Below are positions 3,001 through 58,972 of a DNA stretch of 64,000 nucleotides, in pieces. Both the position numbers and the translations under genes were made by a program. Every line of letters begins with the position of its first letter. The stretch's first letter is position 1. This DNA comes from an uncultured Gammaproteobacteria bacterium (GTDB lineage: Bacteria; Patescibacteriota; Patescibacteriia; Magasanikbacterales; GWA2-37-8), in assembly GCA_964496095.1 (NCBI GenBank), contig CAZBWU010000001.1, positions 121,474-185,473 on the forward strand. The letters run 5' to 3'. The notes beneath the pieces were generated by a model. It had not been told where the DNA came from. It did no database searches and saw only the letters and a program-made list of their open reading frames with translations.

Positions 3001-4679
3001 CCGATACCACTTCGTTATCTTTTGTTTATACGACATCTACTCTCGACACTACTCATTCTGTTACCATCACTGGTCTCACCAAAGACACAACTTATTATTA
3101 CCTAGTAAAATCTGCTGATGCATCAAACAATATTGCTTCTAGCGACAACAGCGGAAATTATTATACTTTTATTACTCTAAAAACCCCAGGCGACACTACT
3201 ATTGTTATCGGTGGAGGCGGAAGTGGGTCGACGGTGGATAGGACAGCGCCGATTCTAAGTAGTGTAACAGTAAATGATGTAGGGCCAAATGAGACGACAG
3301 TTAAATGGGTTACTGACGAGGAGTCAAGTTCTTTAGTGCGATATGGCACTGCAACAAGTTATGGATATATTGCCGGGAATGACCAAGAGAAAGTTACCAA
3401 TCATTCAGTAGTGTTAAATAATTTGGGCCCAGCTTCAAATTATCATTTCAAAGCGGTATCTTATGATGCATCTGGGAATATGGGTGAATCAGTAGATACA
3501 ATTTTTACTACCCTCAACGAAAATGGAACTGTGGCCACTTCAACACAAACTGCAATAGAACCGTCGGACAGTTTCTTTGTTGCTAAAATAAAAAACGCCT
3601 CTAAAGATACAATAAATACAATTTTGGAAGCCCTAAACAGCAACCCTTCACTGAAGGATGTTTCCGAATCTTCTTTCGTCAAAGCGCTCACCGAAATGAC
3701 CGACAAAGTAGTGTTAGCGCCGTCTATTGTTGGTATCAAACCGCAAGTGGAAGTAAAAGGCACTACCGCAATAATTACTTGGTCCACTGACAAGAAATCA
3801 ACCACGGCGGTTAATTATGCTAAGGAATGGGAGTACAAAGCTTCGGATCCGACCCCTTACGCCAATACGGCTGTTAACGCGGATGAATTTAGTACTACTC
3901 ATCATATTGAATTGGACGGCCTGGATCCGGGCATTACCTATCATTATCAAGTGTCATCCAAAGGCACTATTGGTCCAGAAGCAAGAAGTCAAGATTATAC
4001 CTTCCAAACTACTTCTGAACTTCCAATTATTTCTGACGTTAGAGTGCAAAAGGCAAAAGAATCAGTCGTTACCATTAGTTGGAAAACCAATGTTCCTACT
4101 GCCGCTATTTTGGAATATACCAACCAACGAACTAAGACGACTCTTTCTCAAGGTGACGCCACTCTTCTCATTAACCATGAATTCACTGTCAAAAACTTGG
4201 AAGGAGCTACTACTTACAGTTTGTTAATAAAAGCAACCGATGAATTTAAAAACCAAGCAGTATCTTTGCCTATCAAATTTTCCACCGTCATAGATCAAAT
4301 ACCTCCTGTCATCTCCAAACTTTCTTCCGAATCCACTCTTTATCCAGGTAAAAATTCAAAAGTTCAAACAATTATATCGTGGGAAACAGATGAACCGGCC
4401 ACTTCGCAGTTATTTTATCAAGAAGGGGTCCAAGCCAATGGCACGGTAATCCCTGTGCCTGTTGATACTTCACTCAATACCCGACATATTATTGTGGTCA
4501 CTAAATTCTCGCCTGGGGCCGTTTATAAATACTGGGTGGAATCAAAAGATTTCTCCGGGAACACTTCCAAATCTGAAATATTCTCGCTTCTCGCGCCACA
4601 AGCAAAAGAAACTATAGTTGATATTATTATTAAGAACTTTGAATCTGTGTTTGGATGGACGAAGAATGTAGGAATTTAG
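1..4679 (+). CDS. Giant secreted/surface protein, 5'-truncated at window edge; N-terminal BNR/Asp-box repeats (STDSGATWG) followed by many fibronectin type III-like modules and a Gly-rich linker
   Basis: Reading frame is open back to position 3 and the upstream residues repeat the internal 58-aa unit; SxDxGxTW Asp-box repeats occur twice; a recurring YGT...T...H.V.L..L...T.Y.Y.V pattern is typical of Fn3/PAP-N domains; 174-nt DNA tandem repeat at 40-110 and 214-284. Confidence 0.75.
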   Translation, partial: SNEISGVFTNIALRKSTDSGATWGARVDVTASVTAGSFNPMIALGAANNLYVTYYSNEFNSAYTNIAFRTSTDSGATWGARVDVTASVTRSSQSPLIAMNSANGNLYTAYSSREYSSGTNNISIRSASIGNYAATGNLVSSPFDTLDNRNIIGELSWDEAASLPANTAVTVSLRTASTSALLSSASWSDFTNATANCSKSDITVTCPLSALPVGMTDGLNDEWWQYKVALTGGFNTPNVSRVSVKYIINATPQIQGVTAIQSSSTNDVIITYAVLDPDTFSGTESVGFVSSTFQYCNSDGSNCQNISSQMAVGNSSVSINSSTFTTTTATWTPAGAFLNINNANAMIKVTVNDNQSANNIALATSSPFVLDTAAPSGGSILVDASSTPAFLTIFATDSSTMEMKISLNNDLAGADWQPYATTSTVALATDPDTVYIQFRDVHNNTSSIYSATTPETPTRAMIQDISNVKDGATDYRLFFAWKVVANPNPGFASYQIYRSTDQVDWTLVKTETTRTSNFYTDSTISTGVLYYYRVITLDSAGNISRYSSVLRGNPNGTQDGDEGGGASAVAAVPTITNVATSSVSQNSVLITWDTDVLSDSAIMYGTDSSSLSNTVTVSTMLDNNTSVGNHQVAIMGLSPNTDYFFKVISTNVDGIVVSSTNDGLGFSFSTLNGTSISNVANPQVNNNSAIISWETNDSASEYVVYSTSSNFASSLTVGSPGPYTFHSVSLSGLTAATNYFYYVYSVYNDVTSTDKNIINGNIEYYRFKTTNDITLPTVTSISESTLVNTTTITWVTNKQADSQIIYGTSTNFGSTTTLDSVLTVQHSVTITDLLPNTLYYYKIRSTDANGLLGQSAGDRTFTTLAGNDVTAPVISDIATSSIFLTGATVTWNTDEVANYLVDYGTSGSYGYLAGNPSDFSGTSHSVDLANLTGNTVYYFRVRSQDATGNTATSSQLSFTTVPDISDPIITNVTTAVVNQDSAVITWNTNELATSEIDYSTDTTSLSFVYTTSTLDTTHSVTITGLTKDTTYYYLVKSADASNNIASSDNSGNYYTFITLKTPGDTTIVIGGGGSGSTVDRTAPILSSVTVNDVGPNETTVKWVTDEESSSLVRYGTATSYGYIAGNDQEKVTNHSVVLNNLGPASNYHFKAVSYDASGNMGESVDTIFTTLNENGTVATSTQTAIEPSDSFFVAKIKNASKDTINTILEALNSNPSLKDVSESSFVKALTEMTDKVVLAPSIVGIKPQVEVKGTTAIITWSTDKKSTTAVNYAKEWEYKASDPTPYANTAVNADEFSTTHHIELDGLDPGITYHYQVSSKGTIGPEARSQDYTFQTTSELPIISDVRVQKAKESVVTISWKTNVPTAAILEYTNQRTKTTLSQGDATLLINHEFTVKNLEGATTYSLLIKATDEFKNQAVSLPIKFSTVIDQIPPVISKLSSESTLYPGKNSKVQTIISWETDEPATSQLFYQEGVQANGTVIPVPVDTSLNTRHIIVVTKFSPGAVYKYWVESKDFSGNTSKSEIFSLLAPQAKETIVDIIIKNFESVFGWTKNVGI

Positions 4680-6016: not shown

Positions 6017-7225
6017 GTGAACTTTGTGAAGCTAGCTGATTTATACAATCTTTCAACTAGAATGTTTAGAACCAGGCCAACCAGAACATGGTTGACCGTT
6101 CTTGGAATTGGCGTGGGAATCAGCGCGGTTTTATTTTTGGTGTCTTTGGGTTATGGGTTACAAAATGTTATTTTGCAAAAAATAGTATTCAACGAGGCGA
6201 TGTTGAGTTTAACAATTACTCCCGGTACAGATTTAATTATTTTAGACAATGAAGCAGTGGCTGATATTTTAAAAATTCAACATGTAACTGACGCATCTCC
6301 TTTAACAAAATTTACGGGTCAAATGGCACTCGGAGATTTAAATGGTACCATGGCGATAAGAGGTGTTAACGCTAATTTTTTTGGTTATTCCGGAACGGTT
6401 GCCAAAGCCGGCGATGTTTTTCTTGAAAACGAATCAGGCCAGATCGTGGTTTCCGAGGCTGTTTTAAAACTTTTCGGCGTGCAAGATCCGAAAGATATAA
6501 TTGGCAAGGAAGTTAGTTTAAAAATATTCATAACCAGCAGTAGTGTCAGTCAATCGCAATTGGAAATTGTCGATGTGCCAACCAATTATATTGTCAAAGG
6601 TGTGGTTGAAGATTCGCAAGATAGTTATATCTACATGCCGCTTAAGGAATTGGCAAGTTATGTGAAAGTAAATAGTTATGAACAAGCCAGGGTAAAAGTT
6701 GATGAAATTAACAATTTACAGTCGGTAAAGGATGCTATGCTTATAAAAGGATACCAGACACAATCACTATCTGAAATAATTGAACAGGCAAATAAAATTT
6801 TTCAAGTTATTCAAATAGTGCTCGGCTTATTTGGAGCTATTGCTTTAGTCGTTTCCGCGATCGGCATGTTTAACACCATGACGGTTACGTTGTTGGAAAG
6901 AACGAATGAAATCGGTATTATGAGATCTTTGGGAGCTAGTAAAGGAAATTTACGAAACTTATTTTTGAGCGAATCGATTGTGATTGGTTTTCTTGGTGGT
7001 GTAGTTGGTATTATAATCGGAATTTTGGGAGGGCAATTTACTAATTTAGTAGTCAATAGCCTGGCGGCAAAATTTGGTGGGACATCTGCAAACCTGTTTG
7101 CTTACCCGGCGTGGTTTATAATGGTAATTCTTTTTTTATCAGTAATTATCGGTTTTTTTTCAGGACTTTTTCCAGCTCGTCGCGCCGCGTCAATGGATCC
7201 GCTTGAAGCATTGAGATATAAGTAA
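6017..7225 (+). CDS. ABC transporter permease, FtsX/MacB-like
   Basis: N-terminal TM segment, large periplasmic-like domain, then a C-terminal cluster of four TM segments (ALVVSAIGMFNTMTVTLLERTNEIGIMRSLGASK is the typical FtsX-family core); GTG start, alternative ATG at 6062. Confidence 0.75.
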   Translation: MNFVKLADLYNLSTRMFRTRPTRTWLTVLGIGVGISAVLFLVSLGYGLQNVILQKIVFNEAMLSLTITPGTDLIILDNEAVADILKIQHVTDASPLTKFTGQMALGDLNGTMAIRGVNANFFGYSGTVAKAGDVFLENESGQIVVSEAVLKLFGVQDPKDIIGKEVSLKIFITSSSVSQSQLEIVDVPTNYIVKGVVEDSQDSYIYMPLKELASYVKVNSYEQARVKVDEINNLQSVKDAMLIKGYQTQSLSEIIEQANKIFQVIQIVLGLFGAIALVVSAIGMFNTMTVTLLERTNEIGIMRSLGASKGNLRNLFLSESIVIGFLGGVVGIIIGILGGQFTNLVVNSLAAKFGGTSANLFAYPAWFIMVILFLSVIIGFFSGLFPARRAASMDPLEALRYK

Positions 7226-13543: not shown

Positions 13544-13573
13544 TAATTTAATTACTGCTCACTCATTTCGAAT

Positions 13574-14269
13574 ATGGGACATAAAGTACATCCGAAAATT
13601 CACAGAATACCAACTATTTATACTTGGGATTCAAAATGGTTTGCAAAGAACAAGCAGATGCCTTTGTTTTTAGAACAAGAAACCGCTATTAGAAAATTGT
13701 TAACCAAAAAATTGAAAGATTCTTTACTTGATGGTATTAGTATTGAGAGAACTCCAAAGGATCTAACAGTTTATATTCTTTCTGCAAAACCAGGTACTAT
13801 TATCGGCCGAGGCGGACAAGGTTTGGAAGGTTTATGCAGACAAATTGAAAAAGAAATTTTACAACAAAAATTAAAAGTTAAAATTAATGTTTTAGAAGTA
13901 CGCCAACCATCTTTGTCAGCTCAGATTATGGCGCAAAATGCAGCGACCGATATTGAAAAACGTTTTCCTTTCCGCAGAGTTATGAAACAATTGATTGAAA
14001 GAGTAATGACTGCTGGCGGACAGGGTGTTAAGATTTGTATGAGTGGACGCTTAAATGGCGTAGAAATTGCTAGAACTGAAAAACTAAGCGCTGGTAAAAT
14101 GTCACTTATTACTGTTCGTAGTGATGTTGACTATGCTTTGGCTGAAGCTCAAACTTTATATGGAAAAATTGGTATTAAGGTTTGGATTTATAAAGGTGAA
14201 GCATTTAGTCGTCGAGATAAATTTGCTAAAAAAGACGATGAGCCAAAGGTAGAAGGGAAAAGAAAATAA
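13574..14269 (+). CDS. rpsC: 30S ribosomal protein S3
   Basis: MGHKVHPKIHR... KH and S3-C domains; conserved CTCACTCATTTCGAATATG motif at the start. Confidence 0.96.
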   Translation: MGHKVHPKIHRIPTIYTWDSKWFAKNKQMPLFLEQETAIRKLLTKKLKDSLLDGISIERTPKDLTVYILSAKPGTIIGRGGQGLEGLCRQIEKEILQQKLKVKINVLEVRQPSLSAQIMAQNAATDIEKRFPFRRVMKQLIERVMTAGGQGVKICMSGRLNGVEIARTEKLSAGKMSLITVRSDVDYALAEAQTLYGKIGIKVWIYKGEAFSRRDKFAKKDDEPKVEGKRK

Positions 14270-25768: not shown

Positions 25769-27064
25769 ATGAAACAAGCGTTTATCAAAGACCTGGCAGG
25801 ACTAGTTGATCAAGAAGTAGAAATCAAAGGTTGGCTATACAACCGCCGTTCTTCAGGGCCGATTGCTTTTTTGGAATTACGTGATGGTTCTGGTTGGATT
25901 CAGGCAGTGGCAGTCAAAGCTGATTTGGATCTGGCGATTTGGGAAGAAATAGAAAAATCTACCCAAGAGTCTTCTGTGTTAGTAGTTGGTAACATTGCTA
26001 AGCATCCAAAAAAAGAAAATGTTTTTGAATTGCAAGTTAAAGATTTTAAAATTTTACAATTATCTCAAGAATATCCAATCGCGCTCAAAGATCATGGACC
26101 AGATTTTTTGATGGATAATCGTCATTTGTGGTTACGTAGTAAAAGGCAGTGGGCAATTTTACGCATACGCGATGCGGTCAAAACTGCTATTCATCAATAT
26201 TTACACCAAGAGAATTTTATCAGTGTTGATTCTCCGGTATTTACGCCTAACGCTTGTGAAGGTACTACGACACTTTTTCCTGTGCCTTATTTTGATTTAG
26301 GCGAAGCGTATCTTTCTCAGTCAGGACAGCTTTATATAGAAGCAGCGATTGCCTCAGTTGGTAAGTGTTATGATTTTGGGCCAGTGTTTCGCGCGGAGAA
26401 AAGCAAAACCAAACGTCACCTGACCGAATTTTGGATGATGGATGCGGAAGCAGCTTTTGCAGAGCATGAAGACAATATCAAGACCCAAGAAGGTTTACTT
26501 CGTTTTATTATTCGTCACTGTCTCAATAATTGCCAAGAAGAATTAAAAGTTTTAGAAAGAAATACTGAGCCCCTTGAAAAAGCTGACCAGCCATTTACTC
26601 GTTATACCTATGACCAAGCTATAAAAAAATTAAACGAGATGGGTTCAGATATTAAGTACGGCGAAGATTTGGGTAATGATGATGAAGGATTGCTTACCAA
26701 AGATTCAGCCGTGCCGGTCTTTATCGAAAAATGGCCAAAGAGTATCAAGCCATTCTACATGAAGCAAGACCCTGAAAATCCAGATTTGGTTTTGAATGAT
26801 GATTTGATTGCGACTGAAGGCGCAGGTGAAATTAGCGGTGGTAGTCAGCGTGAAGATAATTTTGAATTGTTGCTAGCAAAAATAAAAGCTGAAGGTTTGC
26901 CTCAGGCAGATTATGATTGGTATTTGGATCTGCGGAAATATGGCAGTGTACCACATTCTGGTTTTGGTATTGGTTTAGAGCGTATTGTGCGTTGGATTAC
27001 CGGCGTAGAGCATATCCGTGAGTGTATTCCTTTCCCTCGAACTATTAGTCGGTTGAGACCATAA
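25769..27064 (+). CDS. asnS: Asparaginyl-tRNA synthetase (class IIb; AspRS-type not excluded)
   Basis: Class II motifs FRAEKSKTKRHLTEFWMMDAE, GGSQRE, GFGIGLERIV. Confidence 0.75.
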   Translation: MKQAFIKDLAGLVDQEVEIKGWLYNRRSSGPIAFLELRDGSGWIQAVAVKADLDLAIWEEIEKSTQESSVLVVGNIAKHPKKENVFELQVKDFKILQLSQEYPIALKDHGPDFLMDNRHLWLRSKRQWAILRIRDAVKTAIHQYLHQENFISVDSPVFTPNACEGTTTLFPVPYFDLGEAYLSQSGQLYIEAAIASVGKCYDFGPVFRAEKSKTKRHLTEFWMMDAEAAFAEHEDNIKTQEGLLRFIIRHCLNNCQEELKVLERNTEPLEKADQPFTRYTYDQAIKKLNEMGSDIKYGEDLGNDDEGLLTKDSAVPVFIEKWPKSIKPFYMKQDPENPDLVLNDDLIATEGAGEISGGSQREDNFELLLAKIKAEGLPQADYDWYLDLRKYGSVPHSGFGIGLERIVRWITGVEHIRECIPFPRTISRLRP

Positions 27065-27156
27065 AATTAATTTATTTGCTATAAATATAGGGGTTTTTGT
27101 TCTTCATTAATATTGACAAAAACCCCTTATTAAACTATAATCTTACATAAGTATTA

Positions 27157-27238
27157 GCCGAAGTGGCGGAATTGGTAGACGCACACGACTCAAAATCGTG
27201 CGGAGAAATCCATGAGAGTTCGATTCTCTCCTTCGGCA
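27157..27238 (+). tRNA. tRNA-Leu (anticodon CAA), long variable arm, CCA not encoded
   Basis: Acceptor GCCGAAG/CTTCGGC, anticodon stem CACGA/TCGTG, loop CTCAAAA, T-arm GAGAGTTCGATTCTCTC. Confidence 0.9.
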
Positions 27239-27325
27239 CATTAAAAATTTGACATGAGTATGGCTACATGATACAGTTTTAATAGTATGATAATGACTGT
27301 CCAACAAAACTTTGCTTACTATTTT

Positions 27326-27400
27326 AGACGCTCTGGCTAGGGACGTGTTATTTTGTTAGTGCAAACAATAACGTCGCTCTAGCCAGAGCGTCTTTTTTTA
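27326..27400 (+). terminator. Long hairpin terminator (15-bp stem AGACGCTCTGGCTAG/CTAGCCAGAGCGTCT + T7)
   Basis: Read directly; preceded by TTGACA-N18-TACAGT near 27250. Confidence 0.65.
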
Positions 27401-27426
27401 TTTTACACAGTTTGTTCTTTACAAAA

Positions 27427-27770
27427 GGTCAGGGCGGTCGCCGGCAAGAGTAGAAAAAGTTTTTCTTTTCTTGCTGGCGACCTCCCTGCCAATGAGTGGG
27501 AGGAGAAAGGGTGGGGCATATGCCCTCCGTTGATCCGACTGTCACTCCTCCGATTGCTGAGCAGCCGGAGGGGCCTACTCCCTCCACGTCTGCTTCTAGT
27601 CCTTCTGGCAGCGACCCCCAGAGAGAGGCTGTGTCTTCGCCTCCGCAAGCTGACAAGCTCGCGGGCGGTAACTGGGGCAAGAAGCCTAGCCTAGGTTGGT
27701 AGAGATGACCAGGCAGGCGCGAGGGCCGCCCTGACCGAGATTCGGTTGGGGCGGCCGCTTTTATTTTAAA
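27427..27770. other. GC-rich (~62%) island bounded by 11-bp inverted repeats GGTCAGGGCGG/CCGCCCTGACC, with terminal GC hairpin + T-run; contains a 60-codon Pro/Ser-rich ORF with Shine-Dalgarno
   Basis: Composition shift versus AT-rich flanks; inverted repeats at 27427-27437 and 27727-27737. Confidence 0.5.
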
Positions 27771-27851
27771 TCTGTCAGAGTATAAGTTTTTTTATATTGT
27801 TATCTTATAGTATAGTATTCCAACGTAATTTTAGAATTTGGGATTTAGTAT

Positions 27852-28604
27852 TTAAGATTTTGCCGTTACAAGTGACCAAGTAAAGTTAAAAAATTGTTGT
27901 AACATTTTTGCTAGCACGGGGGAATCAATAATGATTGAGTTTAACTCGTTTTCTTTTAGGGCAAATAATGCAATTTTATTTCCATAGATATTCATGGTGC
28001 CATCAAATTCAAAATTAGCAGGTAGAAATTTTGTTTCTCTTAAGTCCAGTTCGTTCATCTGAAAGTGGGTGTCGCTTTTAGCATCATATCTCAAAAATGT
28101 TTTAGCGGAAACGCCTAGTTTTTTTCTTTCCTCAATCCAGTTCGGAAAATATTTAGGAAATAAATTAAAGTCCATTGGTGAAGATATAACAAGAATATGC
28201 TTGATTTTGTTTTTCTTAAAATTTTCCAACATTTCATTTCTGGCTCGGATGTAGCCTTCCTTGCCTTTATATAATTTTACTGTTGGCAAAACTTTTGCCG
28301 TATTTATTAGATTAGATAAGTCAGGCAAGATCTCCGTTATTTCTTTCTTTTTTTCTTCTAATACATCAAGCAAAATCTTTGGGTTTTCGGGGGTGTAATA
28401 GCGAACATTATTTCGTAGGCTTGAGTTAACTAGGCCTTTGTTTTTAAGTGTCTCTAAGGCTGTGTAGGTGCTTGTTCGGGGTAAATCTGCATTCTCAGCT
28501 GTTGTATAAGCAGAAGCCTCAACTAGTCTAAGGAGAGCAATATAGACCTTTGTTTCATGGTCTGACAGGCCGTATTTTTTTAGTACTTTAGTGACTTCTT
28601 GCAT
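27852..28604 (-). CDS. TrmB-family transcriptional regulator (wHTH + effector domain)
   Basis: N-terminal LSDHETKVYIALLRLVEASAYTTAENADLPRTSTYTALETLKNKGLV wHTH. Confidence 0.7.
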   Translation of the reverse strand: MQEVTKVLKKYGLSDHETKVYIALLRLVEASAYTTAENADLPRTSTYTALETLKNKGLVNSSLRNNVRYYTPENPKILLDVLEEKKKEITEILPDLSNLINTAKVLPTVKLYKGKEGYIRARNEMLENFKKNKIKHILVISSPMDFNLFPKYFPNWIEERKKLGVSAKTFLRYDAKSDTHFQMNELDLRETKFLPANFEFDGTMNIYGNKIALFALKENELNSIIIDSPVLAKMLQQFFNFTWSLVTAKS

Positions 28605-28753
28605 ATAGTCCAGTTTTTAGACGTCAATGTGTGAGTTGTTTATTGGCTTATAATAACAGAAATTAAGTAGTTTGTCAAGATTTTTATCCTAAAATAGGAC
28701 AATAAAATGCTCTCTTGGTATGCTAATGGTGTTCATTTATTGATTGTTTATCT

Positions 28754-29713
28754 ATGAAAAATACAAAGTTTATAGTGATAGGTATAGTTTTTATTGGATT
28801 AATTATTTTTGGTAAAGCCATATGGCCAAAACCAACAGAAATAAAAAAAATAAAAATGAGTTATCTTCCGGCTACTTGTGATCTGGTAAACTTTATTGCC
28901 TATGAGCAGGGATATTATAAGGATGAAGGACTAAATGTTGAGTTAACCAAATTTGAAACGAGTAATCAAGTTTCTGATGCCTTACTTGCGGGCAGAATTG
29001 ATGTCTCAGGTTGTTTTTCTTATCCTGTAGCTTTTTCTGTAGAGGCAAATCAACCTGATACATTTAGATCTATACGCTCAGTTATTACTTCTTCAGACTA
29101 TCCTTTTTTATGGATAGTAGCTCGTGCTAATGACCAGACAATAAAATCCATAAAGGATTTGGTGGGCAAGAAGGTCGGGCGTTTTCCAGGCACAACCACT
29201 GAGGCTCAGCTTAAGCATGCACTAAAATCAGTTGGAGTTGATCCAAACGCCGTTACTATGCAAGCGATTGCTCCGTCACAACAAATCAATGCTTTAGTAT
29301 CTGGTGTGGTTGATGCTCTGTATGTTTTAGAACCAATTCCGACAATAGCTGAGGAACAAGGTATTGGCAGAAAAGTTGAAGATATTGAAAAATATTTGGT
29401 AGAGCCAAATTATAATGCTTTGTTTGCGGTCACAAAAAATTATTATAAAAATAATAAGGGAATTGTTGGTAGAGTTATAAAAGCGCAAGATAGGGCCGTT
29501 GATTTTCTTAGAAAATATCCTACGGAAGCTAAACAAATTATGACAAAATATACTCCATTAAGTTCTGGTCAAGCTGCAAAGGTTGGTGTTGGTTATCCTC
29601 TAAAGAGCACTGAAACTATTGAGTATGCAAAGGTGCAAGAATATGCGGATTTACTCTTTAATGAAGGAGACCTAAAGATTAAAGTGGATATAGGAAAATT
29701 GTTTAGTAATTAA
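28754..29713 (+). CDS. ABC transporter substrate-binding protein, NitT/TauT (SsuA/NMT1/ThiY-like) family
   Basis: Signal anchor, periplasmic binding fold pattern; operon with matching ATPase and permease. Confidence 0.7.
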   Translation: MKNTKFIVIGIVFIGLIIFGKAIWPKPTEIKKIKMSYLPATCDLVNFIAYEQGYYKDEGLNVELTKFETSNQVSDALLAGRIDVSGCFSYPVAFSVEANQPDTFRSIRSVITSSDYPFLWIVARANDQTIKSIKDLVGKKVGRFPGTTTEAQLKHALKSVGVDPNAVTMQAIAPSQQINALVSGVVDALYVLEPIPTIAEEQGIGRKVEDIEKYLVEPNYNALFAVTKNYYKNNKGIVGRVIKAQDRAVDFLRKYPTEAKQIMTKYTPLSSGQAAKVGVGYPLKSTETIEYAKVQEYADLLFNEGDLKIKVDIGKLFSN

Positions 29714-29717
29714 AAGT

Positions 29718-30467
29718 ATGGTCAAGGAGTTGATTAAAATAGATCGCCTGAGCAAAGTATTTACTGATTCAAGCGGGCGCGAAACAAGAGTTATAAATGA
29801 AATCACCTTCAATATAAATGAAGGTGATTTCATAACTATATTTGGGCCTAACGGTTCAGGTAAGACCACATTACTGAATATTATTGCTAAGTTGGAAACG
29901 TTCACAGGTGGCGATATGGTTTATAGTAAATCCAATTTTAAGATTGGGTATGTCTTTCAAAATTATGATGAGTCGTTACTTCCTTGGAGAACGGTTGAAG
30001 AAAATATTGAGCTTCCTTTGGAAAAAGGTTTATACTCCGAACAGGAAATTACCGAACAAGTAAATAGAGTTATTAATCTTTTGAATTTAGAAAAATATAG
30101 GCAAAAGTATCCTTATATGCTTTCAGGGGGGAAAAAACAATTGACTGCGTTAGCTCGTACATTAGTGATCGAACCCGACCTTTTATTAATGGATGAACCG
30201 TTTTCTTCTTTGGATTTTGATACGACTGTAGAAATGGAACAGTTACTGTTGGATATTTGGGCGAAATTAAATATGACTATTCTATTTGTGTCTCACAACA
30301 TTGATGAAGCAATACTTTTAGCTGACAGAGTGTTAATCTTGTCACATAAATCTTCTATAGAAAATGTTGAAGTAAAACTTGATAGGCCGAGGAATCACGA
30401 TATGTTAGTTTCACAAAATTTTGTGGATATAAAAAAAGAAGTCATAGTCAAATATGGTAGAAGATAA
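29718..30467 (+). CDS. ABC transporter ATP-binding protein, NitT/TauT family
   Basis: GPNGSGKTTLL, LSGGKKQ, LLLMDEP. Confidence 0.85.
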   Translation: MVKELIKIDRLSKVFTDSSGRETRVINEITFNINEGDFITIFGPNGSGKTTLLNIIAKLETFTGGDMVYSKSNFKIGYVFQNYDESLLPWRTVEENIELPLEKGLYSEQEITEQVNRVINLLNLEKYRQKYPYMLSGGKKQLTALARTLVIEPDLLLMDEPFSSLDFDTTVEMEQLLLDIWAKLNMTILFVSHNIDEAILLADRVLILSHKSSIENVEVKLDRPRNHDMLVSQNFVDIKKEVIVKYGRR

Positions 30468-31212
30468 TCATAAACAATCCTTAGCTGAAGGCCCATTACT
30501 GATATTGGTAGTTTGGATTATTATTACAAATTTTGGGTTGATAAACCCTCTTTTTTTACCAACCCCACAAAAGGTTGCTGTTTCTCTAATTGATTCTATA
30601 TCTAATATCGATATTTGGCGTGACTTGGGCCTTACTCTTTATAGGGCTTTTATGGCTTTGGCTTTAGGTGGGATTGTGGGGGTGCCACTTGGTTTATTAA
30701 TGGGTTATTTTGATCGCTTTTATAAATTTTCTGAGTTTATCATTGAGTTTTTTAGGGCCACACCAGCCACAGCATTATTTCCGTTATTTTTATTGTTATT
30801 TGGTATTGGTGATTTGGCAAAAATAGCGCTTGTGTTCTGGGCTGTTGTTTTTATAATAATTATTCATTCTATTTATGGGGTGCGTTTAGGCAAACGCTCA
30901 CGTTACCGCGTAGCGAAAATAATGAGGTTCTCAGGCTTTCTGCTTTTTAAAAAGTTTATTTTTCCTGAAGCCCTACCTCAGATTTTAGTTGGTCTGCGAA
31001 TTGCCATGTCTAATTCTTTAGTAATTGTGGTGGTGATGGAAATGTTTATCGGTACCAAATTTGGCCTGGGTAAAAGAATTATTGATTCGCAAATGGTCTA
31101 TAGAATACCAGACATGTATGCGACTATACTACTGGTGGGTAGTGTCGGTTATCTTTTGAATCAGTTATTCAGTAAAGTAGAGAAAAGAATTGTCCATTGG
31201 TCGGGTAGGTAA
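30454..31212 (+). CDS. ABC transporter permease, NitT/TauT family (BPD_transp_1)
   Basis: 6 TM; EAA-like loop. Confidence 0.8.
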   Translation: MVEDNHKQSLAEGPLLILVVWIIITNFGLINPLFLPTPQKVAVSLIDSISNIDIWRDLGLTLYRAFMALALGGIVGVPLGLLMGYFDRFYKFSEFIIEFFRATPATALFPLFLLLFGIGDLAKIALVFWAVVFIIIIHSIYGVRLGKRSRYRVAKIMRFSGFLLFKKFIFPEALPQILVGLRIAMSNSLVIVVVMEMFIGTKFGLGKRIIDSQMVYRIPDMYATILLVGSVGYLLNQLFSKVEKRIVHWSGR

Positions 31213-31246: not shown

Positions 31247-31300
31247 CTCATTGATGCAATTTTCAATGAGTTTTTTTATTTTTCAGCTTGTGGTATAATA
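31247..31300 (+). promoter_or_regulatory. Terminator hairpin CTCATTGA...TCAATGAG + T-run, then extended -10 promoter TGgTATAAT for parA
   Basis: Read directly; identical TTGTGGTATAAT promoter string recurs at 44551-44564. Confidence 0.55.
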
Positions 31301-31358
31301 TTCTCGTCTAGATTTATTCTGATGAAGATTTATTTTATAGTTAGAATTTTCAAAGTTT

Positions 31359-34676: not shown

Positions 34677-34830
34677 AGTAATTAAATTTTATCCTATTTT
34701 TTTGATTAAGGCAATTACCATTGACATTCTGTCTCCTTTGTGGTAAGGTGCGCCCCGACCCATCTAGCCCGGCATATCGCTGGAGGATGAGGGGTCATCT
34801 CACCAGTTCCGTTACTCGTCGGAGGATTCC

Positions 34831-35187
34831 ATGAACCGCTTCGGTGGTCTCTCGTTCGTCACCCTCGTCACCCTCGCCATCACCGCCTGCACCGAGTCCG
34901 CCGACATCGAGTCGGCGCCGGTCATCACCGATCCGCACGGCCGCGAGGCGGCCGTCGTGGACATCAGCGAGCTGGACCTCGACATGCGGGCGATCGCGAC
35001 CGATCTGGTCGATGAGGTCAGCACGACGCCGCCGCCCAGCGGCGGCGTCATCGAGAAGGGGTGCCGCTGGCTGGAGCTCGATTTCCTCGGTTGCGCGGTG
35101 TCGGTCGGCGCCTGCTTCATCCCGAGCTCCTTCGAGCCGGGCTGGTCGGTGGCGGTGCTCGTCACCGAGCCCTACTGCGAGCCCTAG
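34831..35187 (+). CDS. Putative lipoprotein of foreign (high-GC, actinobacterial-like) codon usage inside a ~560-bp ~68% GC island
   Basis: GGAGG 7 nt upstream; lipobox LAITAC; GC3 near 90% versus ~25% in neighbours; GGGCttcGCCC hairpin after stop; overlapping ORFs in other frames are composition artefacts. Confidence 0.55.
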   Translation: MNRFGGLSFVTLVTLAITACTESADIESAPVITDPHGREAAVVDISELDLDMRAIATDLVDEVSTTPPPSGGVIEKGCRWLELDFLGCAVSVGACFIPSSFEPGWSVAVLVTEPYCEP

Positions 35188-35412
35188 CGGGCTTCGGCCC
35201 CTGGGAGGTCACCGGCGGGTGCCTCGACCGGTCCCCTGCCCGCGGACGTAGAGCCGCGGAGAGGCGCAGCCGTTCACGCGCTGCCGCCTGGTCGTTCGTT
35301 GTCGCGTAATGTTTATAAATTATTTGTAGATATTACCCGAACGATCAGGATTTTTTTAAAAAACACTGCTTAGTAATAGGCGGTGTTTTTAATATGTATG
35401 AATTAATAAATA

Positions 35413-44592: not shown

Positions 44593-44684
44593 AACTCATT
44601 CGCTCGGAAATACTCAGTTCAATATTTATAATTCGTAATCGATTATAAATATCTCACCGACTATTTCACTCGCTCATTTCGATT

Positions 44685-45641
44685 ATGAAAAAAATACTAA
44701 AAAAGTACTTTATTTCTCATAAAGAAAATAATTTTCATGCCCACCTACTTCACACGAAGCGGGCAGTTTTTTATGGCTTGGTTTTTTTATTGACCAAGAT
44801 TATTTTGGTTACTTTTGTTTTGTTTTTACCCGTTGGCGTATTTGTCTTGCCTGATGTCTTGGCCGAAGAACAAAAACAAATTTTGGCTTTGACCAATCAG
44901 CTTAGACACAATAAAAAACTAGCAGTATTATCCGAGATGGACAAGTTAAACCTATCAGCTCAAAACAAAGCAGAGGATATGGCCAATAATAATTATTTTG
45001 CTCATTCTATTGATGATAAGAGTTTGTCTACCTGGCTACAAGGAGCAGGTTATAAGTATGAAGTAGCGGGGGAGAATCTGGCAGTTGGTTTTAGTAGTGC
45101 CCAAGATATATTAACTGCTTGGGAAAAAAGCCCAACCCATTATGCAAATTTAATTGACCCAGACTTCAAAGATTTGGGGATTGGTTTGGCTGGAGGAGTA
45201 TATAAAGACCAACCCACGGTTTTTATTGTTCAACATTTTGCTACGCCAGTTGCAGTAGTCAAAGAGGAGCCGGCTAAAAAAATAATTGGCAAAAAATCTT
45301 CGGTGGTGGAAATAAAAGTTGAAAAAGATCTTATTCCAGAGCCTGATGCGCAAGAACCACAGTTGGTTTTGGGAGGAAAAATAAAAAACGAAGAATCTCA
45401 AAATCCCATAGTTAGTCAAAATCAATCTTCACCTGTTGAAAAATATATCCAAGCTAAGAATGTTTTATCACCGCTGACAAATATTTTTGCTGTATCACAA
45501 AATATTTATTTTGGAGCTATGCTTTTTTTTGCTTTTGTGTTACTTTTAAACATAGTCATTCATTTGCGCAAACAGCACTACCATATTATAGCTCAAACTA
45601 GTGGCTTAATTGCTTTGCTGTTTATTTTTTGGAAATTTTAA
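44685..45641 (+). CDS. CAP/SCP (YkwD-like) domain protein with N- and C-terminal TM anchors
   Basis: CAP motifs ...NNNYFAHS...GENLA...AWEKSPTHYANL. Confidence 0.75.
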   Translation: MKKILKKYFISHKENNFHAHLLHTKRAVFYGLVFLLTKIILVTFVLFLPVGVFVLPDVLAEEQKQILALTNQLRHNKKLAVLSEMDKLNLSAQNKAEDMANNNYFAHSIDDKSLSTWLQGAGYKYEVAGENLAVGFSSAQDILTAWEKSPTHYANLIDPDFKDLGIGLAGGVYKDQPTVFIVQHFATPVAVVKEEPAKKIIGKKSSVVEIKVEKDLIPEPDAQEPQLVLGGKIKNEESQNPIVSQNQSSPVEKYIQAKNVLSPLTNIFAVSQNIYFGAMLFFAFVLLLNIVIHLRKQHYHIIAQTSGLIALLFIFWKF

Positions 45642-52711: not shown

Positions 52712-52815
52712 AATTTGTTTAGTTTTATTTACTGTAAACTTGTAATGAGTTTGTTAACTGTCATTCGCTCAAAAATATTTTAGCTAGCTAAATATTTTAT
52801 TCACTCATTTCGTAT

Positions 52816-53652
52816 ATGAAAAAAATAATTGCCCTGTTCGCAGTCATCGCAGTCTTAGGTGTTATAGTTGTTTTTTATAATTCCAGAAAACCAATCTCGC
52901 AAACTGATGAATATAATAATGGGATAGAAGATTTGGCTGGTTTAATTATAGAAAATGTAGAATCGGGTAGTATTATTTTATCGCCCTTGAAAATTATAGG
53001 GCGTATTACTGGTGATGGTTGGATCGGTTTTGAAGGTCAGGTAGGTAATGTTAGTTTAGTAGATAGAGAAGGTAATGTATTAGATACTAAGCCACTGACT
53101 GCTACTTCCGATTGGATGACTTCGACCGTCCGTTTTGAAGCTAATATAGAATTTTTTACCACTGCTACGTCGGGTAAACTTGTCTTTAGAAATGAAAACC
53201 CGAGTGGGGAGCCATCAAGAGACAGATCTGTTTCTCGGAATATAAAATTCGCTCCAGCTGGAGAAGTGGTGAATTTAAAAGCGTATTTTAGTAATAGTAA
53301 TCTTGATCCAAAGATTACTTGCAAAGAAGTTTTTCCTGTGGCTAGGACTGTGGCCAAGACTGCAGGAGTAGCCAGAGCCGCGCTTGAAGAAATGCTCAAA
53401 GGTCCAACTTCGCAAGAACAGGCCGGCGGGTTTGCTAGTATGATTAACCTTGGTGTAAAGATTAATAGTCTCACTATAGATAAAGGCGTAGCCAAAGTTG
53501 ATTTTGATGGGACAATTCAGCAAGGCGTAGGTGGGTCATGTCGGGTAAGTATGATGAGATTGCAAATAGAGCAAACTTTAAAACAATTTCCAACTGTACA
53601 GAGTGTGATTATTTCTGTTGATGGTAAGACAGAAGATGTTTTACAACCATGA
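52816..53652 (+). CDS. Membrane-anchored GerMN/Gmad2-like domain protein
   Basis: N-terminal TM; C-terminal GerMN-like region; 4-nt overlap with uvrC; conserved CACTCATTTCGTATATG start motif and 26-bp perfect palindrome AAAATATTTAGCTAGCTAAATATTTT upstream. Confidence 0.55.
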   Translation: MKKIIALFAVIAVLGVIVVFYNSRKPISQTDEYNNGIEDLAGLIIENVESGSIILSPLKIIGRITGDGWIGFEGQVGNVSLVDREGNVLDTKPLTATSDWMTSTVRFEANIEFFTTATSGKLVFRNENPSGEPSRDRSVSRNIKFAPAGEVVNLKAYFSNSNLDPKITCKEVFPVARTVAKTAGVARAALEEMLKGPTSQEQAGGFASMINLGVKINSLTIDKGVAKVDFDGTIQQGVGGSCRVSMMRLQIEQTLKQFPTVQSVIISVDGKTEDVLQP

Positions 53653-54954: not shown

Positions 54955-55022
54955 CCGAACGTTCATCACCAATGCCCCTGTTGGAGGGGAAGAAAGAAAA
55001 AAGGGAGGGGGTGATATATCAA

Positions 55023-55340
55023 ATGAGCAAAGACGAAAAGCTGGACTATCCGGCCGAATTCGTCGCGGCAGTCGCGGCTGAGTGGCCGCCACCCAACGAC
55101 AAGGTGATACCTGGGAGGTTGGCTGAAGGAGACCCGAAGATCGGGGCGCTTCTTGCCCAAGCTTCAGAGGATCCTTTCACGCCCCAAGAGGTCGTCAAGT
55201 TCTTGGAGGCAGGTCAGGGGGCAGATCTCCTGAGTCAAGCTCAGCGGAGAATCCGGCTGGGCAAGCTCTTCGAGCAGTGGTTGAAGATCGTTCAGCCATC
55301 AACACCATCACCTCGTCGGTCTCGTCGTCGCGCTCGGTAG
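55023..55340 (+). CDS. Hypothetical 105-aa protein with Arg-rich C-terminus, in a ~58% GC island (54955-55430) of atypical codon usage
   Basis: GGAGGGGG Shine-Dalgarno before ATG; composition shift; GTCAGCggagcgatGCTGAC hairpin after stop. Confidence 0.45.
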   Translation: MSKDEKLDYPAEFVAAVAAEWPPPNDKVIPGRLAEGDPKIGALLAQASEDPFTPQEVVKFLEAGQGADLLSQAQRRIRLGKLFEQWLKIVQPSTPSPRRSRRRAR

Positions 55341-55452
55341 GATGATGTCAGCGGAGCGATGCTGACGGCCAGGCACAAAGCCCAGGGCGCCGTCGCTCCG
55401 GCCCCGCATTATCCTTATCAATACTGGTAATGATAATCTAGGGCCTAAATTT

Positions 55453-55481
55453 GACAGTTTTGTCCATATATAGTATAATTT
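55453..55481 (+). promoter_or_regulatory. Consensus sigma70 promoter TTGACA-N17-TATAAT for the rpsA leader
   Basis: Exact hexamers, 17-nt spacer. Confidence 0.7.
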
Positions 55482-58934: not shown

Positions 58935-58972
58935 TATAGCAAGCTTAATTATTTCGCTCACTCATTTTGTAT

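What the first reader, a model, noticed from the sequence alone, without database searches (positions are those of the whole stretch)
27427..27770. GC-rich inverted-repeat-bounded insertion downstream of tRNA-Leu
A 340-bp segment of ~62% GC sits 190 bp after a tRNA gene, a classical integration hotspot. It is bounded by GGTCAGGGCGG/CCGCCCTGACC inverted repeats. It begins with a long hairpin and ends with a GC hairpin plus a T-run. It carries a 60-codon Pro/Ser-rich ORF with a Shine-Dalgarno. It has no recognisable RNase P, tmRNA, SRP or 6S motifs. This could be a miniature mobile element, an integrated-element remnant, or a structured RNA of foreign composition.
Basis: seen in the sequence. 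Interest (0 to 1): 0.55.

Follow-up and report, generated by a model that had tools for sequence, protein, structure and literature searches.

The report
Small GC-rich orphan gene beside tRNA-Leu
The GC-rich segment after tRNA-Leu is real and is most likely a tiny, unannotated, proline-rich orphan gene with folded untranslated ends, found in only three related groundwater Magasanikbacteria; it is not a jumping element or a known RNA, so it is a modest curiosity.

Summary
Two independent assemblies reproduce it exactly.

The organism is a Candidatus Magasanikbacteria (CPR) bacterium. Two relatives carry the same unit at the same site (asnS, tRNA-Leu, unit, parA), so it is not a recent insertion. 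No other copy turned up in the window, in about 0.6 Mb of related loci, or in metagenome, viral, phage and plasmid collections. It has no Rfam match.

The best reading is a clade-restricted orphan micro-protein gene of non-host composition:
- The ATG and SD are conserved.
- All indels are in frame.
- All three lineages share the same codon periodicity.
- GC3 is 57% against 30% in the host.
- It has an SD in a genome where about 90% of genes lack one.

The upstream leader is more conserved than neighbouring genes. One compensatory substitution links the two repeat arms, which may mean a 5'-3' RNA interaction or a DNA-level repeat; three sequences cannot tell these apart.

The mobile-element and structured-RNA readings are not supported. 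"Foreign composition in a variable tRNA-adjacent site" is supported. Interest is modest.

The parts
27113..27141 (+). Promoter-like site P1 (TTGACA-17-TATAAT) in front of tRNA-Leu
   Evidence: 12 of 12 consensus match
27157..27239 (+). tRNA-Leu(CAA)
   Evidence: ARAGORN and Rfam RF00005. It is 100% identical in L005 and L085.
27249..27277 (+). Promoter-like site P2 (TTGACA-17-TACAGT, TG-extended). This is the inferred start of the unit's transcript.
   Evidence: Both hexamers are kept in L085 and L005 (TTGACG-17-TATAGT), while the spacer has diverged in L005.
27287..27340 (+). Possible 17-codon AT-rich leader ORF (MIMTVQQNFAYYFRRSG*). Its stop codon lies in the 5' arm of hairpin 1.
   Evidence: Read directly from the sequence and alignment A3. 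L085 and L005 encode MVEIVQQNFAYYFRRSG*, and the three changes in codons 5-13 are all third-position synonymous C>T. It has no SD, like host genes. Translation is not shown.
27326..27400 (+). Hairpin 1 plus a run of seven T: a strong intrinsic-terminator-like structure (-43.7 kcal/mol)
   Evidence: It is part of the 135-nt exact match with L005, the longest in 12 kb of synteny.
27427..27437 (+). 5' arm of the 11-nt inverted repeat (GGTCAGGGCGG). It is also the base of hairpin 2.
   Evidence: In L085, 27433 G>A is matched by 27730 C>T.
27427..27490 (+). Hairpin 2, a 64-nt 5' stem-loop. Its 3' strand carries CCUCCC (27481-27486), which is complementary to the SD.
   Evidence: 27 of 28 pairs are kept or wobble-compatible in at least two of the three lineages. 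When the 5' arm is left out of the fold, CCUCCC pairs with GGGAGG.
27498..27511 (+). Shine-Dalgarno region GGGAGGAGAAAGGG
   Evidence: It lies within a 50-nt block (27461-27510) that is invariant in all three lineages. The spacer down to the ATG tolerates a 1-nt indel.
27520..27702 (+). 60-codon ORF encoding a Pro/Ser/Ala/Gly-rich peptide, MPSVDPT...GNWGKKPSLGW
   Evidence: Homologues are P0001 (78% identity) and P0003 (33-35% identity). Indels are in frame and frame 1 aligns best. Codon periodicity is shared by all three lineages. The AlphaFold model is low-confidence and has almost no secondary structure.
27542..27626 (+). Fast-evolving core of the ORF
   Evidence: All 24 window-versus-L085 differences in the ORF fall here. 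They split 9/9/6 across codon positions, giving 3 synonymous and 13 non-synonymous codon changes.
27726..27736 (+). 3' arm of the inverted repeat (CCGCCCTGACC), inside the terminator's ascending arm
27724..27768 (+). Intrinsic terminator: a 15-bp GC-rich hairpin followed by TTTTATTTT
   Evidence: L005 has two double-sided and three wobble-type changes, all of which keep the stem.
27795..27850 (+). Remnant of the parA upstream/promoter region. A diverged second copy sits at 31270-31355.
   Evidence: Alignment A6. This marks where the TrmB-ABC block entered.
27852..31212 (.). TrmB-like regulator plus a three-gene ABC transporter block. It is lineage-specific cargo between the unit and parA.
   Evidence: It is absent from L005, L006, L007 and L085.

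Best explanation
The segment is the GC-rich body of a small, self-contained transcription unit that encodes an orphan micro-protein. The protein is 55-60 aa, proline-rich and probably disordered. The unit sits in the variable interval between tRNA-Leu(CAA) and parA in a narrow clade of groundwater Candidatus Magasanikbacteria.

**Shown**
- The unit is real.
- It is single copy.
- Three lineages carry it at the same site.
- The ATG, the SD and the open frame are conserved.
- It ends in a hairpin terminator that keeps its pairing through compensatory changes.
- Its base and codon composition and its use of an SD are unlike the host's.

**Inferred**
- It was acquired from a GC-richer, SD-using source before the three lineages split, and has been kept since.
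- Transcription starts at the conserved promoter-like site P2, just after the tRNA. It must read through a strong terminator-like hairpin (hairpin 1), so the default output would be low.
- The mRNA 5' end folds into a 64-nt hairpin. Its 5' arm (GGUCAGGGCGG) holds down a CCUCCC anti-SD sequence and so leaves the SD (GGGAGG) free for translation.
- The same 5' arm is perfectly complementary to 11 nt in the 3' UTR. Engaging it there would free CCUCCC to mask the SD. This would act as a translation or stability switch that depends on the state of the 3' end.

The function of the peptide is unknown.
For: **Reality and conservation**
- reproduce the unit in independent assemblies.
- Homologous units sit in the same synteny in L005/L086 and L085.
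- The leader 27320-27510 differs at only 3 positions (from L005) and 12 positions (from L085) out of 191. Fourfold sites of asnS differ by 50% and 35%.
- The longest exact match in 12 kb of synteny lies in the leader and exceeds the match across the tRNA.

**Coding**
- The ATG column is conserved. A 1-nt indel is tolerated only in the SD-ATG spacer, and it throws the upstream ATG at 27492 out of frame in the window.
- The L005 indels inside the ORF are -3, +6 and -12 nt.
- The frame-1 protein alignment scores 45-48. Other frames score 26 or less and reverse frames 19 or less.
- CCN codons number 12-14 in frame 1 against 3-7 in the other frames. Third-position A is only 5-10% in all three lineages, including the very divergent L005.
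- Gene callers called the ORF in two lineages.
- The GC-rich middle has no unusual RNA structure.

**Non-host character**
- GC3 is 56-59% against host GC4 of 30%.
- Only 5 of 40 window genes and 15 of 346 genes in relatives have an SD-like motif.

**Switch elements**
- Searches show the competing pairings.
- 27433 G>A is paired with 27730 C>T, the only substitution in 155 nt of the 3' part.
Against: - Between the window and L085, the ORF core shows no codon-position bias (9/9/6), with 13 non-synonymous against 3 synonymous codon changes. The last 25 codons and the 3' UTR show no synonymous change at all. This looks like neutral drift plus nucleotide-level constraint, or recent recombination, rather than protein-level purifying selection.
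- Frame 2 is also nearly open. A 55-codon open frame has roughly a 17% chance at 60% GC (my estimate).
- No gene product matching either the 60-aa (ATG) or the 68-aa (GTG) reading of this ORF is on record in the protein collection, and no gene is called over it in the Logan contig.
- No homologue exists outside the three lineages among about 15 billion proteins. No donor lineage was identified.
- No promoter was found between hairpin 1 and the ORF.
- The forced 5'-3' pairing is 9.5-20 kcal/mol worse than the local hairpins.
- In L005 the 3' arm has a mismatch.
- With three sequences, the covariation is not significant by the shuffle control (148 of 500).
Confidence: 0.58

Rival explanations
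1. It is a non-coding RNA. In this reading the conserved leader hairpins and the GC-rich body act as a stable regulatory or scaffold RNA. The 5' and 3' ends pair through GGUCAGGGCGG and CCGCCCUGACC, and the open frame is a by-product of GC richness.
For: - Conservation is at the nucleotide level in the leader and, between the window and L085, across the ORF's 3' end and the 3' UTR.
- One compensatory change keeps the terminal helix.
- The whole unit folds with z = -6 to -7.6.
- Substitutions in the ORF core are uniform across codon positions.
- GC richness is kept in an AT-rich genome.
Against: - There is no Rfam match even at E<=10.
- Outside the two terminal hairpins the fold is ordinary (z -1.4, -3.1, -1.35).
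- The RNAalifold covariation term is about 0.
- The terminal helix costs 9.5-20 kcal/mol against the local folds.
- Codon periodicity, in-frame indels, the frame-1 similarity excess and the conserved ATG/SD are not expected of a non-coding RNA.
Confidence: 0.2
2. It is a miniature inverted-repeat transposable element, or the decayed end of an integrated element that entered at the tRNA-Leu hotspot. It would now be an immobile relic.
For: - It has 11-nt perfect terminal inverted repeats (p about 0.014).
- Its composition is foreign.
- It sits next to a tRNA in an interval that varies among relatives.
- Relatives carry scars at the same tRNA: a pseudo 5' half, and a 54-nt insertion ending in an 8-nt repeat of the tRNA end.
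Against: - It is single copy in the window and in about 0.6 Mb of related loci.
- There is no flanking target-site duplication (sequence).
- The terminal-repeat pattern gives only chance hits in high-GC contigs.
- Leader and terminator words are absent from the viral, phage and plasmid collections, and the one leader word tried (a 22-mer) is absent from the JGI metagenomes.
- No transposase or integrase was found among the ORFs sampled, and no duplicated tRNA 3' fragment.
- It occupies the same site in three lineages, with selective conservation of the leader.
Confidence: 0.08
3. It is an invertible DNA switch. A site-specific recombinase would flip the 288-bp segment between the 11-bp inverted repeats, turning the small ORF on or off relative to promoter P2.
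For: - The perfect inverted repeats flank a roughly 300-bp segment.
- The two repeats changed together in L085, as expected if both sites must match for recombination.
- RNA folding energetics do not favour the pairing, which leaves room for a DNA-level role.
Against: - All six assemblies (the window, L003, L004, L005/L086/L087, L085) show the same orientation.
- No recombinase was seen among the neighbouring or sampled ORFs.
- The repeat is short and imperfect in L005.
- The 3' repeat has an obvious other role as a terminator arm, with its own compensatory changes.
Confidence: 0.05
4. The functional part is the AT-rich leader, working as a leader-peptide attenuator. Ribosome stalling on the 17-codon ORF (NFAYYF) would control read-through of hairpin 1 into whatever lies downstream. 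The GC-rich body would be incidental cargo.
For: - The P2 hexamers are conserved.
- The leader ORF is conserved with three synonymous changes, and its stop lies inside the terminator's 5' arm.
- Hairpin 1 is extremely conserved.
Against: - No antiterminator exists. With the 5' arm masked, the 3' arm still forms its own small terminator hairpin before the run of U.
- The downstream ORF has no link to aromatic amino acids.
- Hairpin 1 could simply be the terminator of tRNA-Leu.
Confidence: 0.07

Closest known systems
Lineage-restricted orphan (ORFan) small genes in tRNA-adjacent variable intervals (genomic islets)
   Same: - It is a short, self-contained unit with its own RBS and terminator.
- Its composition and codon usage are atypical.
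- It has no homologues outside a narrow clade.
- It lies next to a tRNA, in an interval whose content differs between relatives.
   Different: - No integrase, att repeat or donor was identified.
- The unit predates the split of three lineages.
- Its non-coding leader is conserved more strongly than its coding core.
Type I toxin mRNAs regulated by a 5'-3' long-distance interaction and SD sequestration (hok/Sok; aapA1/IsoA1 of Helicobacter). This comparison rests on my own knowledge of those systems.
   Same: - The ORF is small, at most 60 codons.
- The 5' UTR is highly structured and contains an anti-SD element.
- The extreme 5' end is complementary to the 3' UTR, with one compensatory change.
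   Different: - The peptide is proline-rich and hydrophilic, with no transmembrane helix.
- No antisense promoter was found.
- The long-range pairing is energetically disfavoured.
- It is not a member by the defining features.
MITEs (miniature inverted-repeat transposable elements)
   Same: It is about 310 bp, bounded by perfect 11-bp inverted repeats, non-autonomous and intergenic.
   Different: It is single copy, has no target-site duplication, and no family turned up anywhere searched.
Invertible promoters / invertons (fimS-type switches)
   Same: Inverted repeats bound a roughly 300-bp intergenic segment downstream of a promoter.
   Different: Only one orientation is seen, and no recombinase is nearby.
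Leader-peptide transcription attenuators (trpL, pheL type)
   Same: A short upstream ORF with clustered Phe/Tyr codons ends inside a terminator stem.
   Different: There is no alternative antiterminator structure, and the downstream gene is unrelated to amino-acid metabolism.

Membership tests
Small protein-coding gene | Start codon with a ribosome-binding site, conserved among homologues | tested here: met
   ATG 27520 is aligned in all three lineages. GGGAGGAG and AAGGR lie upstream. The 1-nt indel falls only in the spacer.
Small protein-coding gene | Reading frame maintained despite divergence (in-frame indels, frame-specific similarity, codon periodicity) | tested here: met
   Indels are -3, +6 and -12 nt. 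Frame 1 scores 45-48 against 26 or less elsewhere. CCN enrichment and third-position A avoidance are shared by all three lineages.
Small protein-coding gene | Purifying selection on the protein (excess of synonymous change) | tested here: not met
   Window versus L085 shows 3 synonymous and 13 non-synonymous codon changes, spread 9/9/6 over codon positions.
Small protein-coding gene | Evidence of translation or of the product | not testable with these tools
   No expression or proteome data are available.
MITE / IS-derived element | Terminal inverted repeats | tested here: met
   An 11-nt perfect repeat at 27427-27437 and 27726-27736.
MITE / IS-derived element | Target-site duplication flanking the repeats | tested here: not met
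   The flanks are ...ACAAAA|GGTCAG and CTGACC|GAGATT, which share no repeat.
MITE / IS-derived element | Multiple dispersed copies | tested here: not met
   No second copy appears in the window or in the related loci. All 77 pattern hits in public collections are chance. The rest of this genome could not be searched.
tRNA-targeting integrative element / genomic island | Integrase or recombinase gene | tested here: not met
   Neighbours are asnS, recO, TrmB, an ABC transporter and parAB. Other sampled ORFs are housekeeping genes. Not every window ORF was scanned.
tRNA-targeting integrative element / genomic island | Direct repeat of part of the tRNA at the far end (attL/attR) | tested here: not met
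   No second match to either 3' portion of the tRNA at up to 3 mismatches.
tRNA-targeting integrative element / genomic island | Presence or absence polymorphism among close relatives | tested here: not met
   The unit is present in all three closest lineages. Only more distant relatives have other content at the site.
Known structured RNA families (RNase P, tmRNA, 6S, SRP, riboswitches and others) | Match to an Rfam covariance model or ARAGORN | tested here: not met
   The only match at gathering score is the tRNA. At E<=10 there are only hairpin-shaped miRNA or snoRNA matches far below threshold.
Novel structured RNA | Structure beyond composition, and covariation across homologues | tested here: inconclusive
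   The terminal hairpins are supported. The middle has z of -1.4 to -3.1. The alifold covariation term is about 0. Only three sequences are available.
Type I toxin-antitoxin mRNA | Hydrophobic, membrane-inserting small peptide | tested here: not met
   The peptide is Pro/Ser/Ala/Gly-rich with no hydrophobic stretch. The AlphaFold model has essentially no secondary structure.
Type I toxin-antitoxin mRNA | 5'-3' long-distance interaction that controls SD access | tested here: inconclusive
   There is 11-nt complementarity with one compensatory change, and an anti-SD pairing forms when the 5' arm is removed. However, the pairing is 9.5-20 kcal/mol less stable than the local folds.
Type I toxin-antitoxin mRNA | Cis-encoded antisense RNA | tested here: not met
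   No minus-strand promoter-like site lies in 27050-27900. This was a consensus scan only.
Inverton | Both orientations present in the population | not testable with these tools
   All six assembled copies have the same orientation.
Leader-peptide attenuator | Mutually exclusive terminator and antiterminator structures governed by ribosome position | tested here: not met
   Masking the 5' arm still leaves a terminator hairpin before the run of U.

The most novel reading that the evidence does not exclude
The unit may be an undescribed RNA-level switch in a CPR bacterium. The extreme 5' arm of the mRNA would alternate between two partners. In one state it closes a 64-nt hairpin, which keeps the SD free. 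In the other it pairs with the 3' UTR, which frees an anti-SD sequence and masks the SD. Translation of a fast-evolving proline-rich micro-protein would then depend on the integrity of the 3' end.

A related novel reading is that the 11-bp repeats are recombination sites of a small invertible DNA switch.

In either case, this unit and the two other GC-rich, SD-bearing orphan mini-genes in the window would mark a recurrent route by which SD-poor, AT-rich Magasanikbacteria take up foreign micro-genes.
Probability: 0.12. Interest if true: 0.6.

Novelty: new member of a known kind. Interest (0 to 1): 0.33.

Why it matters
**Annotation.** No product matching either the 60-aa or the 68-aa reading of this ORF is on record, and no gene is called over it in this genome's Logan contig, so it is probably an unannotated micro-protein gene. 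GC content, codon usage and SD use differ sharply from the host genes here. That contrast could serve as a simple screen for acquired micro-genes in CPR genomes, whose gene flow and host associations are poorly known.

**Regulation.** The leader is better conserved than the neighbouring genes, and the two repeat arms changed together. This gives a concrete, testable candidate for post-transcriptional control in a lineage with no genetics. The present evidence rests on three sequences and no expression data. The safest reading is an ordinary orphan gene in a variable intergenic site.

Tried and rejected
- **Rfam.** Searches at gathering score and at E<=10 found only the tRNA and hairpin-shaped noise.
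- **Misassembly.** Rejected, because two independent Logan assemblies are identical across both junctions. Their contig breaks lie inside the tRNA, not in the unit.
- **Other copies.** None were found:
  - blastn and nhmmer against the window and about 160 loci;
  - exact words from the leader, hairpin 1 and terminator in viral contigs, and a 22-mer of the leader in the JGI metagenomes;
  - blastn against phages and plasmids.
- **Terminal-repeat pattern with a 265-295 nt gap.** It gave 76 metagenome hits and 1 viral hit. All lie in uniformly 50-75% GC contigs, with no GC contrast and no other similarity, so they are chance.
- **Peptide family searches.** Pfam, PHROGs, NCBIfam and PADLOC gave nothing. 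The 1.84-billion and 5.8-billion protein searches found only the two orthologues, plus one low-complexity Pro-rich hit. Viral contigs had no relatives.
- **Leader-peptide attenuation through hairpin 1.** Rejected, because a small terminator persists when the 5' arm is masked.
- **Pairing between 27306-27323 and the apex of hairpin 2** (I3). It is AU-rich and is not kept in L005, by my reading of alignment A3, so I dropped it.
- **ParB-binding or centromere role for the palindromes.** There is no parS-like site in the window. Relatives have no conserved palindrome upstream of parA.
- **Diversity-generating retroelement.** The window-versus-L085 substitutions show no adenine specificity (sequence), and no reverse transcriptase appeared among the ORFs examined.
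- **Automated SD scoring of GC-rich ORFs in relatives.** This was uninformative, because the longest-ORF rule picks the wrong start codons.
- **Literature.** Two searches found nothing relevant.
Full report
**1.

ARAGORN and Rfam place tRNA-Leu(CAA) at 27157-27239. From 27427 the sequence rises to 58-68% GC in a window that averages 38.8%. The stated interval is 59.9% GC, and 27427-27757 is 61.9%.

GGTCAGGGCGG (27427-27437) and CCGCCCTGACC (27726-27736) form a perfect 11-nt inverted repeat. They are the only two matches in the window. A repeat of this length with arms at least 100 nt apart appears in 1.4% of dinucleotide shuffles.

The segment opens with a 64-nt hairpin (27427-27490) and closes with a 15-bp GC-rich hairpin followed by TTTTATTTT. 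The ORF 27520-27702 encodes a 60-aa Pro/Ser-rich peptide preceded by GGGAGGAG. Rfam finds nothing else even at E<=10; the low-scoring miRNA hits only reflect the hairpin shape.

**2. It is not an assembly artefact, and the host is a CPR bacterium**

Contigs assembled independently by Logan from two sequencing runs (L003, L004) cover the whole GC-rich block and both junctions at 100% identity. Those assemblies break inside the tRNA gene, not in the block.

The AsnRS gene upstream places the window in Candidatus Magasanikbacteria (Patescibacteria). The source contig in NCBI is 457,569 bp long. The neighbourhood is core chromosome:
- upstream: the ribosomal-protein cluster, secY, adk, map, Nramp, recO and asnS;
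- downstream: a TrmB-like regulator, an ABC transporter, parA, parB, relA and gyrA.

**3. Two relatives carry the same unit at the same place**

L005 (and its identical copies L086/L087, from Hainich groundwater) and L085 both have the order asnS, tRNA-Leu(CAA), unit, parA. The three lineages are well separated. Fourfold-degenerate sites of asnS differ by 35% (window-L085), 50% (window-L005) and 41% (L085-L005). The unit is therefore older than their split and is not a recent insertion.

Conservation along the unit is mosaic:
- *Leader.* The leader 27320-27510 comprises a terminator-like hairpin 1 at 27326-27393 with a run of seven T, a spacer, hairpin 2 and the SD. It differs at 3 of 191 positions from L005 and at 12 from L085.
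- *Exact matches.* The longest exact match between the window and L005 over 12 kb of synteny is 135 nt, in this leader. That is longer than the 87-nt match across the tRNA. A 50-nt block (27461-27510) is invariant in all three lineages.
- *ORF core.* The core 27542-27626 carries all 24 window-L085 differences in the ORF (28% divergence). The L005 ORF is barely alignable at the DNA level.
- *3' part.* Between the window and L085, 27627-27781 (the ORF's 3' end plus the 3' UTR) has a single substitution.

**4. Coding or non-coding**

For coding:
- The ATG column is conserved, with AAGGR 7-8 nt upstream and GGGAGGAG further upstream.
- A 1-nt indel occurs only in the SD-ATG spacer. It puts the upstream ATG (27492) out of frame in the window while it stays in frame in the other two lineages, which points to 27520 as the start.
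- The L005 indels inside the ORF are -3, +6 and -12 nt.
- The frame-1 translations align with a score of 45-48. Other frames reach 26 at most and reverse frames 19 at most.
- All three lineages, including the divergent L005, share the same three-base periodicity. There are 12-14 CCN codons in frame 1 against 3-7 in the other frames. C is 40-47% at position 2, and A is only 5-10% at position 3.
- A C-terminal motif, DK[LF]..G.WG[KR], survives at the protein level.
- Gene callers predicted the ORF in two lineages (P0001, P0003).
- Outside the two terminal hairpins, the RNA folds little better than shuffles (z -1.4, -3.1, -1.35). The alifold covariation term is about zero.

Against coding:
- Window-L085 changes are spread evenly over codon positions (9/9/6), giving 3 synonymous and 13 non-synonymous codon changes.
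- There are no synonymous changes in the last 25 codons.
- Frame 2 is nearly open.
- No product matching either the 60-aa or the 68-aa reading of this ORF is on record in the collection, and no gene is called over it in the Logan contig.

My reading is a real but weakly constrained, disordered micro-protein. The AlphaFold model has pLDDT 63, pTM 0.13 and no secondary structure beyond four residues. The mRNA ends are constrained at the nucleotide level.

**5. The inverted repeat**

The 5' arm is the base of hairpin 2. The 3' arm is the ascending arm of the terminator hairpin. The terminator is well supported: in L005, two pairs changed on both sides and three changed to or from wobble pairs, all keeping the stem.

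In L085 the 5' arm has 27433 G>A. The only substitution in 155 nt of the 3' part is 27730 C>T, its exact partner. The change breaks a pair in hairpin 2 and becomes a G·U wobble in the terminator. My rough estimate for that coincidence is about 1 in 500 (one position of 155, one base of three).

Against this:
- The formal shuffle control with three sequences is uninformative (148 of 500).
- L005 has a C·A mismatch in the helix.
- Forcing the 5'-3' helix costs 16, 9.5 and 20 kcal/mol in the three sequences.

When the 5' arm is left out of the fold, CCUCCC (27481-27486) pairs with the SD GGGAGG, so a switch is structurally possible.

The arm-to-arm link is therefore real in some sense. RNA pairing, a DNA-level repeat (a recombination site) and templated mutation cannot be told apart with these data.

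**6. Mobile-element tests fail**

- No second copy exists in the window or in about 0.6 Mb of related loci.
- There is no target-site duplication.
- No duplicated tRNA fragment exists.
- No recombinase or transposase was found among the neighbouring or sampled ORFs.
- The terminal-repeat pattern returned 76 metagenome loci and 1 viral locus. All are uniformly GC-rich, with no other similarity.
- Conserved words from the leader and terminator are absent from viral contigs, and a 22-mer of the leader is absent from the JGI metagenomes. blastn finds nothing in phages or plasmids.

**7. Foreign character and the site**

GC3 of the ORF is 56-59% in all three lineages, against about 30% GC at host fourfold sites.

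Host genes almost never have an SD. Only 5 of 40 in the window, and 15 of 346 long AT-rich ORFs in related loci, have even a four-base SD-like word. The focal ORF has GGGAGGAG.

Two other GC-rich intergenic islands in the window show the same pattern:
- Island 2, about 34715-35400 (ORF 34831-35187), is preceded by GGAGG.
- Island 3, about 54960-55456 (ORF 55023-55340), is preceded by GGGAGGGGG.

Both are orphans. Island 2 is absent from L005, and its only homologue is a 92%-identical orthologue in a related strain. Island 3's ORF matches only itself. Neither has viral relatives.

The asnS-to-parA interval varies widely among 80 Magasanikbacteria loci. The tRNA may be present, absent or flipped, the interval carries 0.1-3.4 kb of cargo, and it often holds unrelated GC-rich ORFs. 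In the window itself, a 3.4-kb TrmB-ABC block has entered between the unit and parA, flanked by a diverged duplicate of the parA upstream region.

"Foreign composition in a variable, tRNA-adjacent site" is therefore supported. No donor was found.

**8. Proposed mechanism**

Shown:
- the anatomy of the unit;
- its conservation pattern;
- the coding signals;
- the competing pairings.

Inferred:
- Transcription starts from P2 (27249-27277, TTGACA-17-TACAGT with a TG extension). Both hexamers are kept in all three lineages, and the spacer has diverged in L005.
- The transcript passes a 17-codon AT-rich leader ORF (27287-27340) whose only changes in codons 5-13 are three synonymous C>T.
- Most transcripts should stop at hairpin 1 (-43.7 kcal/mol plus seven U).
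- Read-through RNA folds into hairpin 2, exposes the SD and is translated into the peptide. The transcript ends at the terminator at 27724-27768.
- Engaging the 5' arm with the 3' UTR would free the anti-SD and silence translation.

Not explained:
- where the working promoter is, if it is not P2;
- why the ORF core stays GC-rich while drifting;
- what the peptide does.

**9. Comparison with known systems**

The unit works most like an acquired orphan small gene. Its UTR layout recalls type I toxin mRNAs (hok, aapA1; from my own knowledge of those systems). It fails their defining features: the peptide is not hydrophobic and no antisense promoter was found. It also fails the defining tests for a MITE, a tRNA-integrating island, any Rfam family and a leader-peptide attenuator. 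The inverton test needs raw reads.

**10. Verdict**

The feature is real and reproducible and shows several odd conservation patterns. It is most economically a new member of a familiar kind: a clade-restricted orphan micro-gene in a variable intergenic site. Interest is about 0.33. The switch or inverton reading has about a 12% chance and would deserve about 0.6.

Noticed in passing
window 34715-35400 (ORF 34831-35187): This is a second GC-rich intergenic island (65% GC, peaking at 78%) between relA and gyrA. It carries a 118-aa ORF with a lipoprotein-like signal (…LAITAC, my reading), a GGAGG SD, and its own promoter-like TTGACA-17-TAAGGT. L005 lacks it. Its only homologue is a 92%-identical orthologue at the same site in a related strain (L165/L166). 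No family or viral match was found.
   Followed up: partly
window 54960-55456 (ORF 55023-55340): This is a third GC-rich intergenic island (57% GC) between uvrC and rpsA. It carries a 105-aa ORF preceded by GGGAGGGGG. It matches only itself among 5.8 billion protein clusters. Copies of 105 and 122 aa are on record from NCBI.
   Followed up: partly
whole window; related loci L005-L084: Host genes almost never have a Shine-Dalgarno motif: 5 of 40 in the window and 15 of 346 in relatives. All three GC-rich island ORFs have strong ones. SD presence plus GC3 may therefore mark acquired genes in this lineage.
   Followed up: partly
window 13562-13576, 44673-44687, 52804-52818, 58961-58975: The conserved motif CTCATTTCG[AT][AT]TATG sits directly against the start codon of four otherwise unrelated genes (4 matches against 0.07 expected). 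It may be a shared translation-initiation or regulatory signal.
   Followed up: no
window 27852-31212, with repeats 27795-27850 and 31270-31355: A TrmB-like regulator plus a three-gene ABC transporter block is absent from L005, L085, L006 and L007. It is flanked by a diverged duplicate of the parA upstream/promoter region, which points to insertion into that region.
   Followed up: partly
L085 2569-2659 and 2756-2809; L005 about 6402-6505: In the two relatives, a degenerate copy of the 5' half of tRNA-Leu lies between the tRNA promoter and the intact tRNA; it is interrupted by GC-rich hairpins. L085 also has a 54-nt insertion right after the tRNA that ends in an 8-nt repeat of the tRNA 3' end (TTCGGCAC). 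These look like scars of past insertion events at this tRNA.
   Followed up: no
window 1-320 (inside ORF 21-4679): Tandem repeats of about 120 nt encode S-T-D-S-G-A-T-W motifs (BNR/Asp-box-like, my reading) at the start of a 1552-aa ORF. This accounts for the GC-rich patch at the left edge of the window.
   Followed up: no
L006 6455-6910, L011 6454-6846, L018 6313-7023, L041 6239-6505, L055 1711-2000: Other Magasanikbacteria carry unrelated GC-rich small ORFs in the same post-asnS interval, on either strand. GC-rich orphan cargo at this site is recurrent.
   Followed up: partly
window 27164-27205: The Logan contigs from both sequencing runs end or start inside the tRNA-Leu gene with a 30-nt overlap. 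This indicates an assembly-graph branch there, probably because co-occurring strains share the tRNA but differ in its flanks.
   Followed up: no
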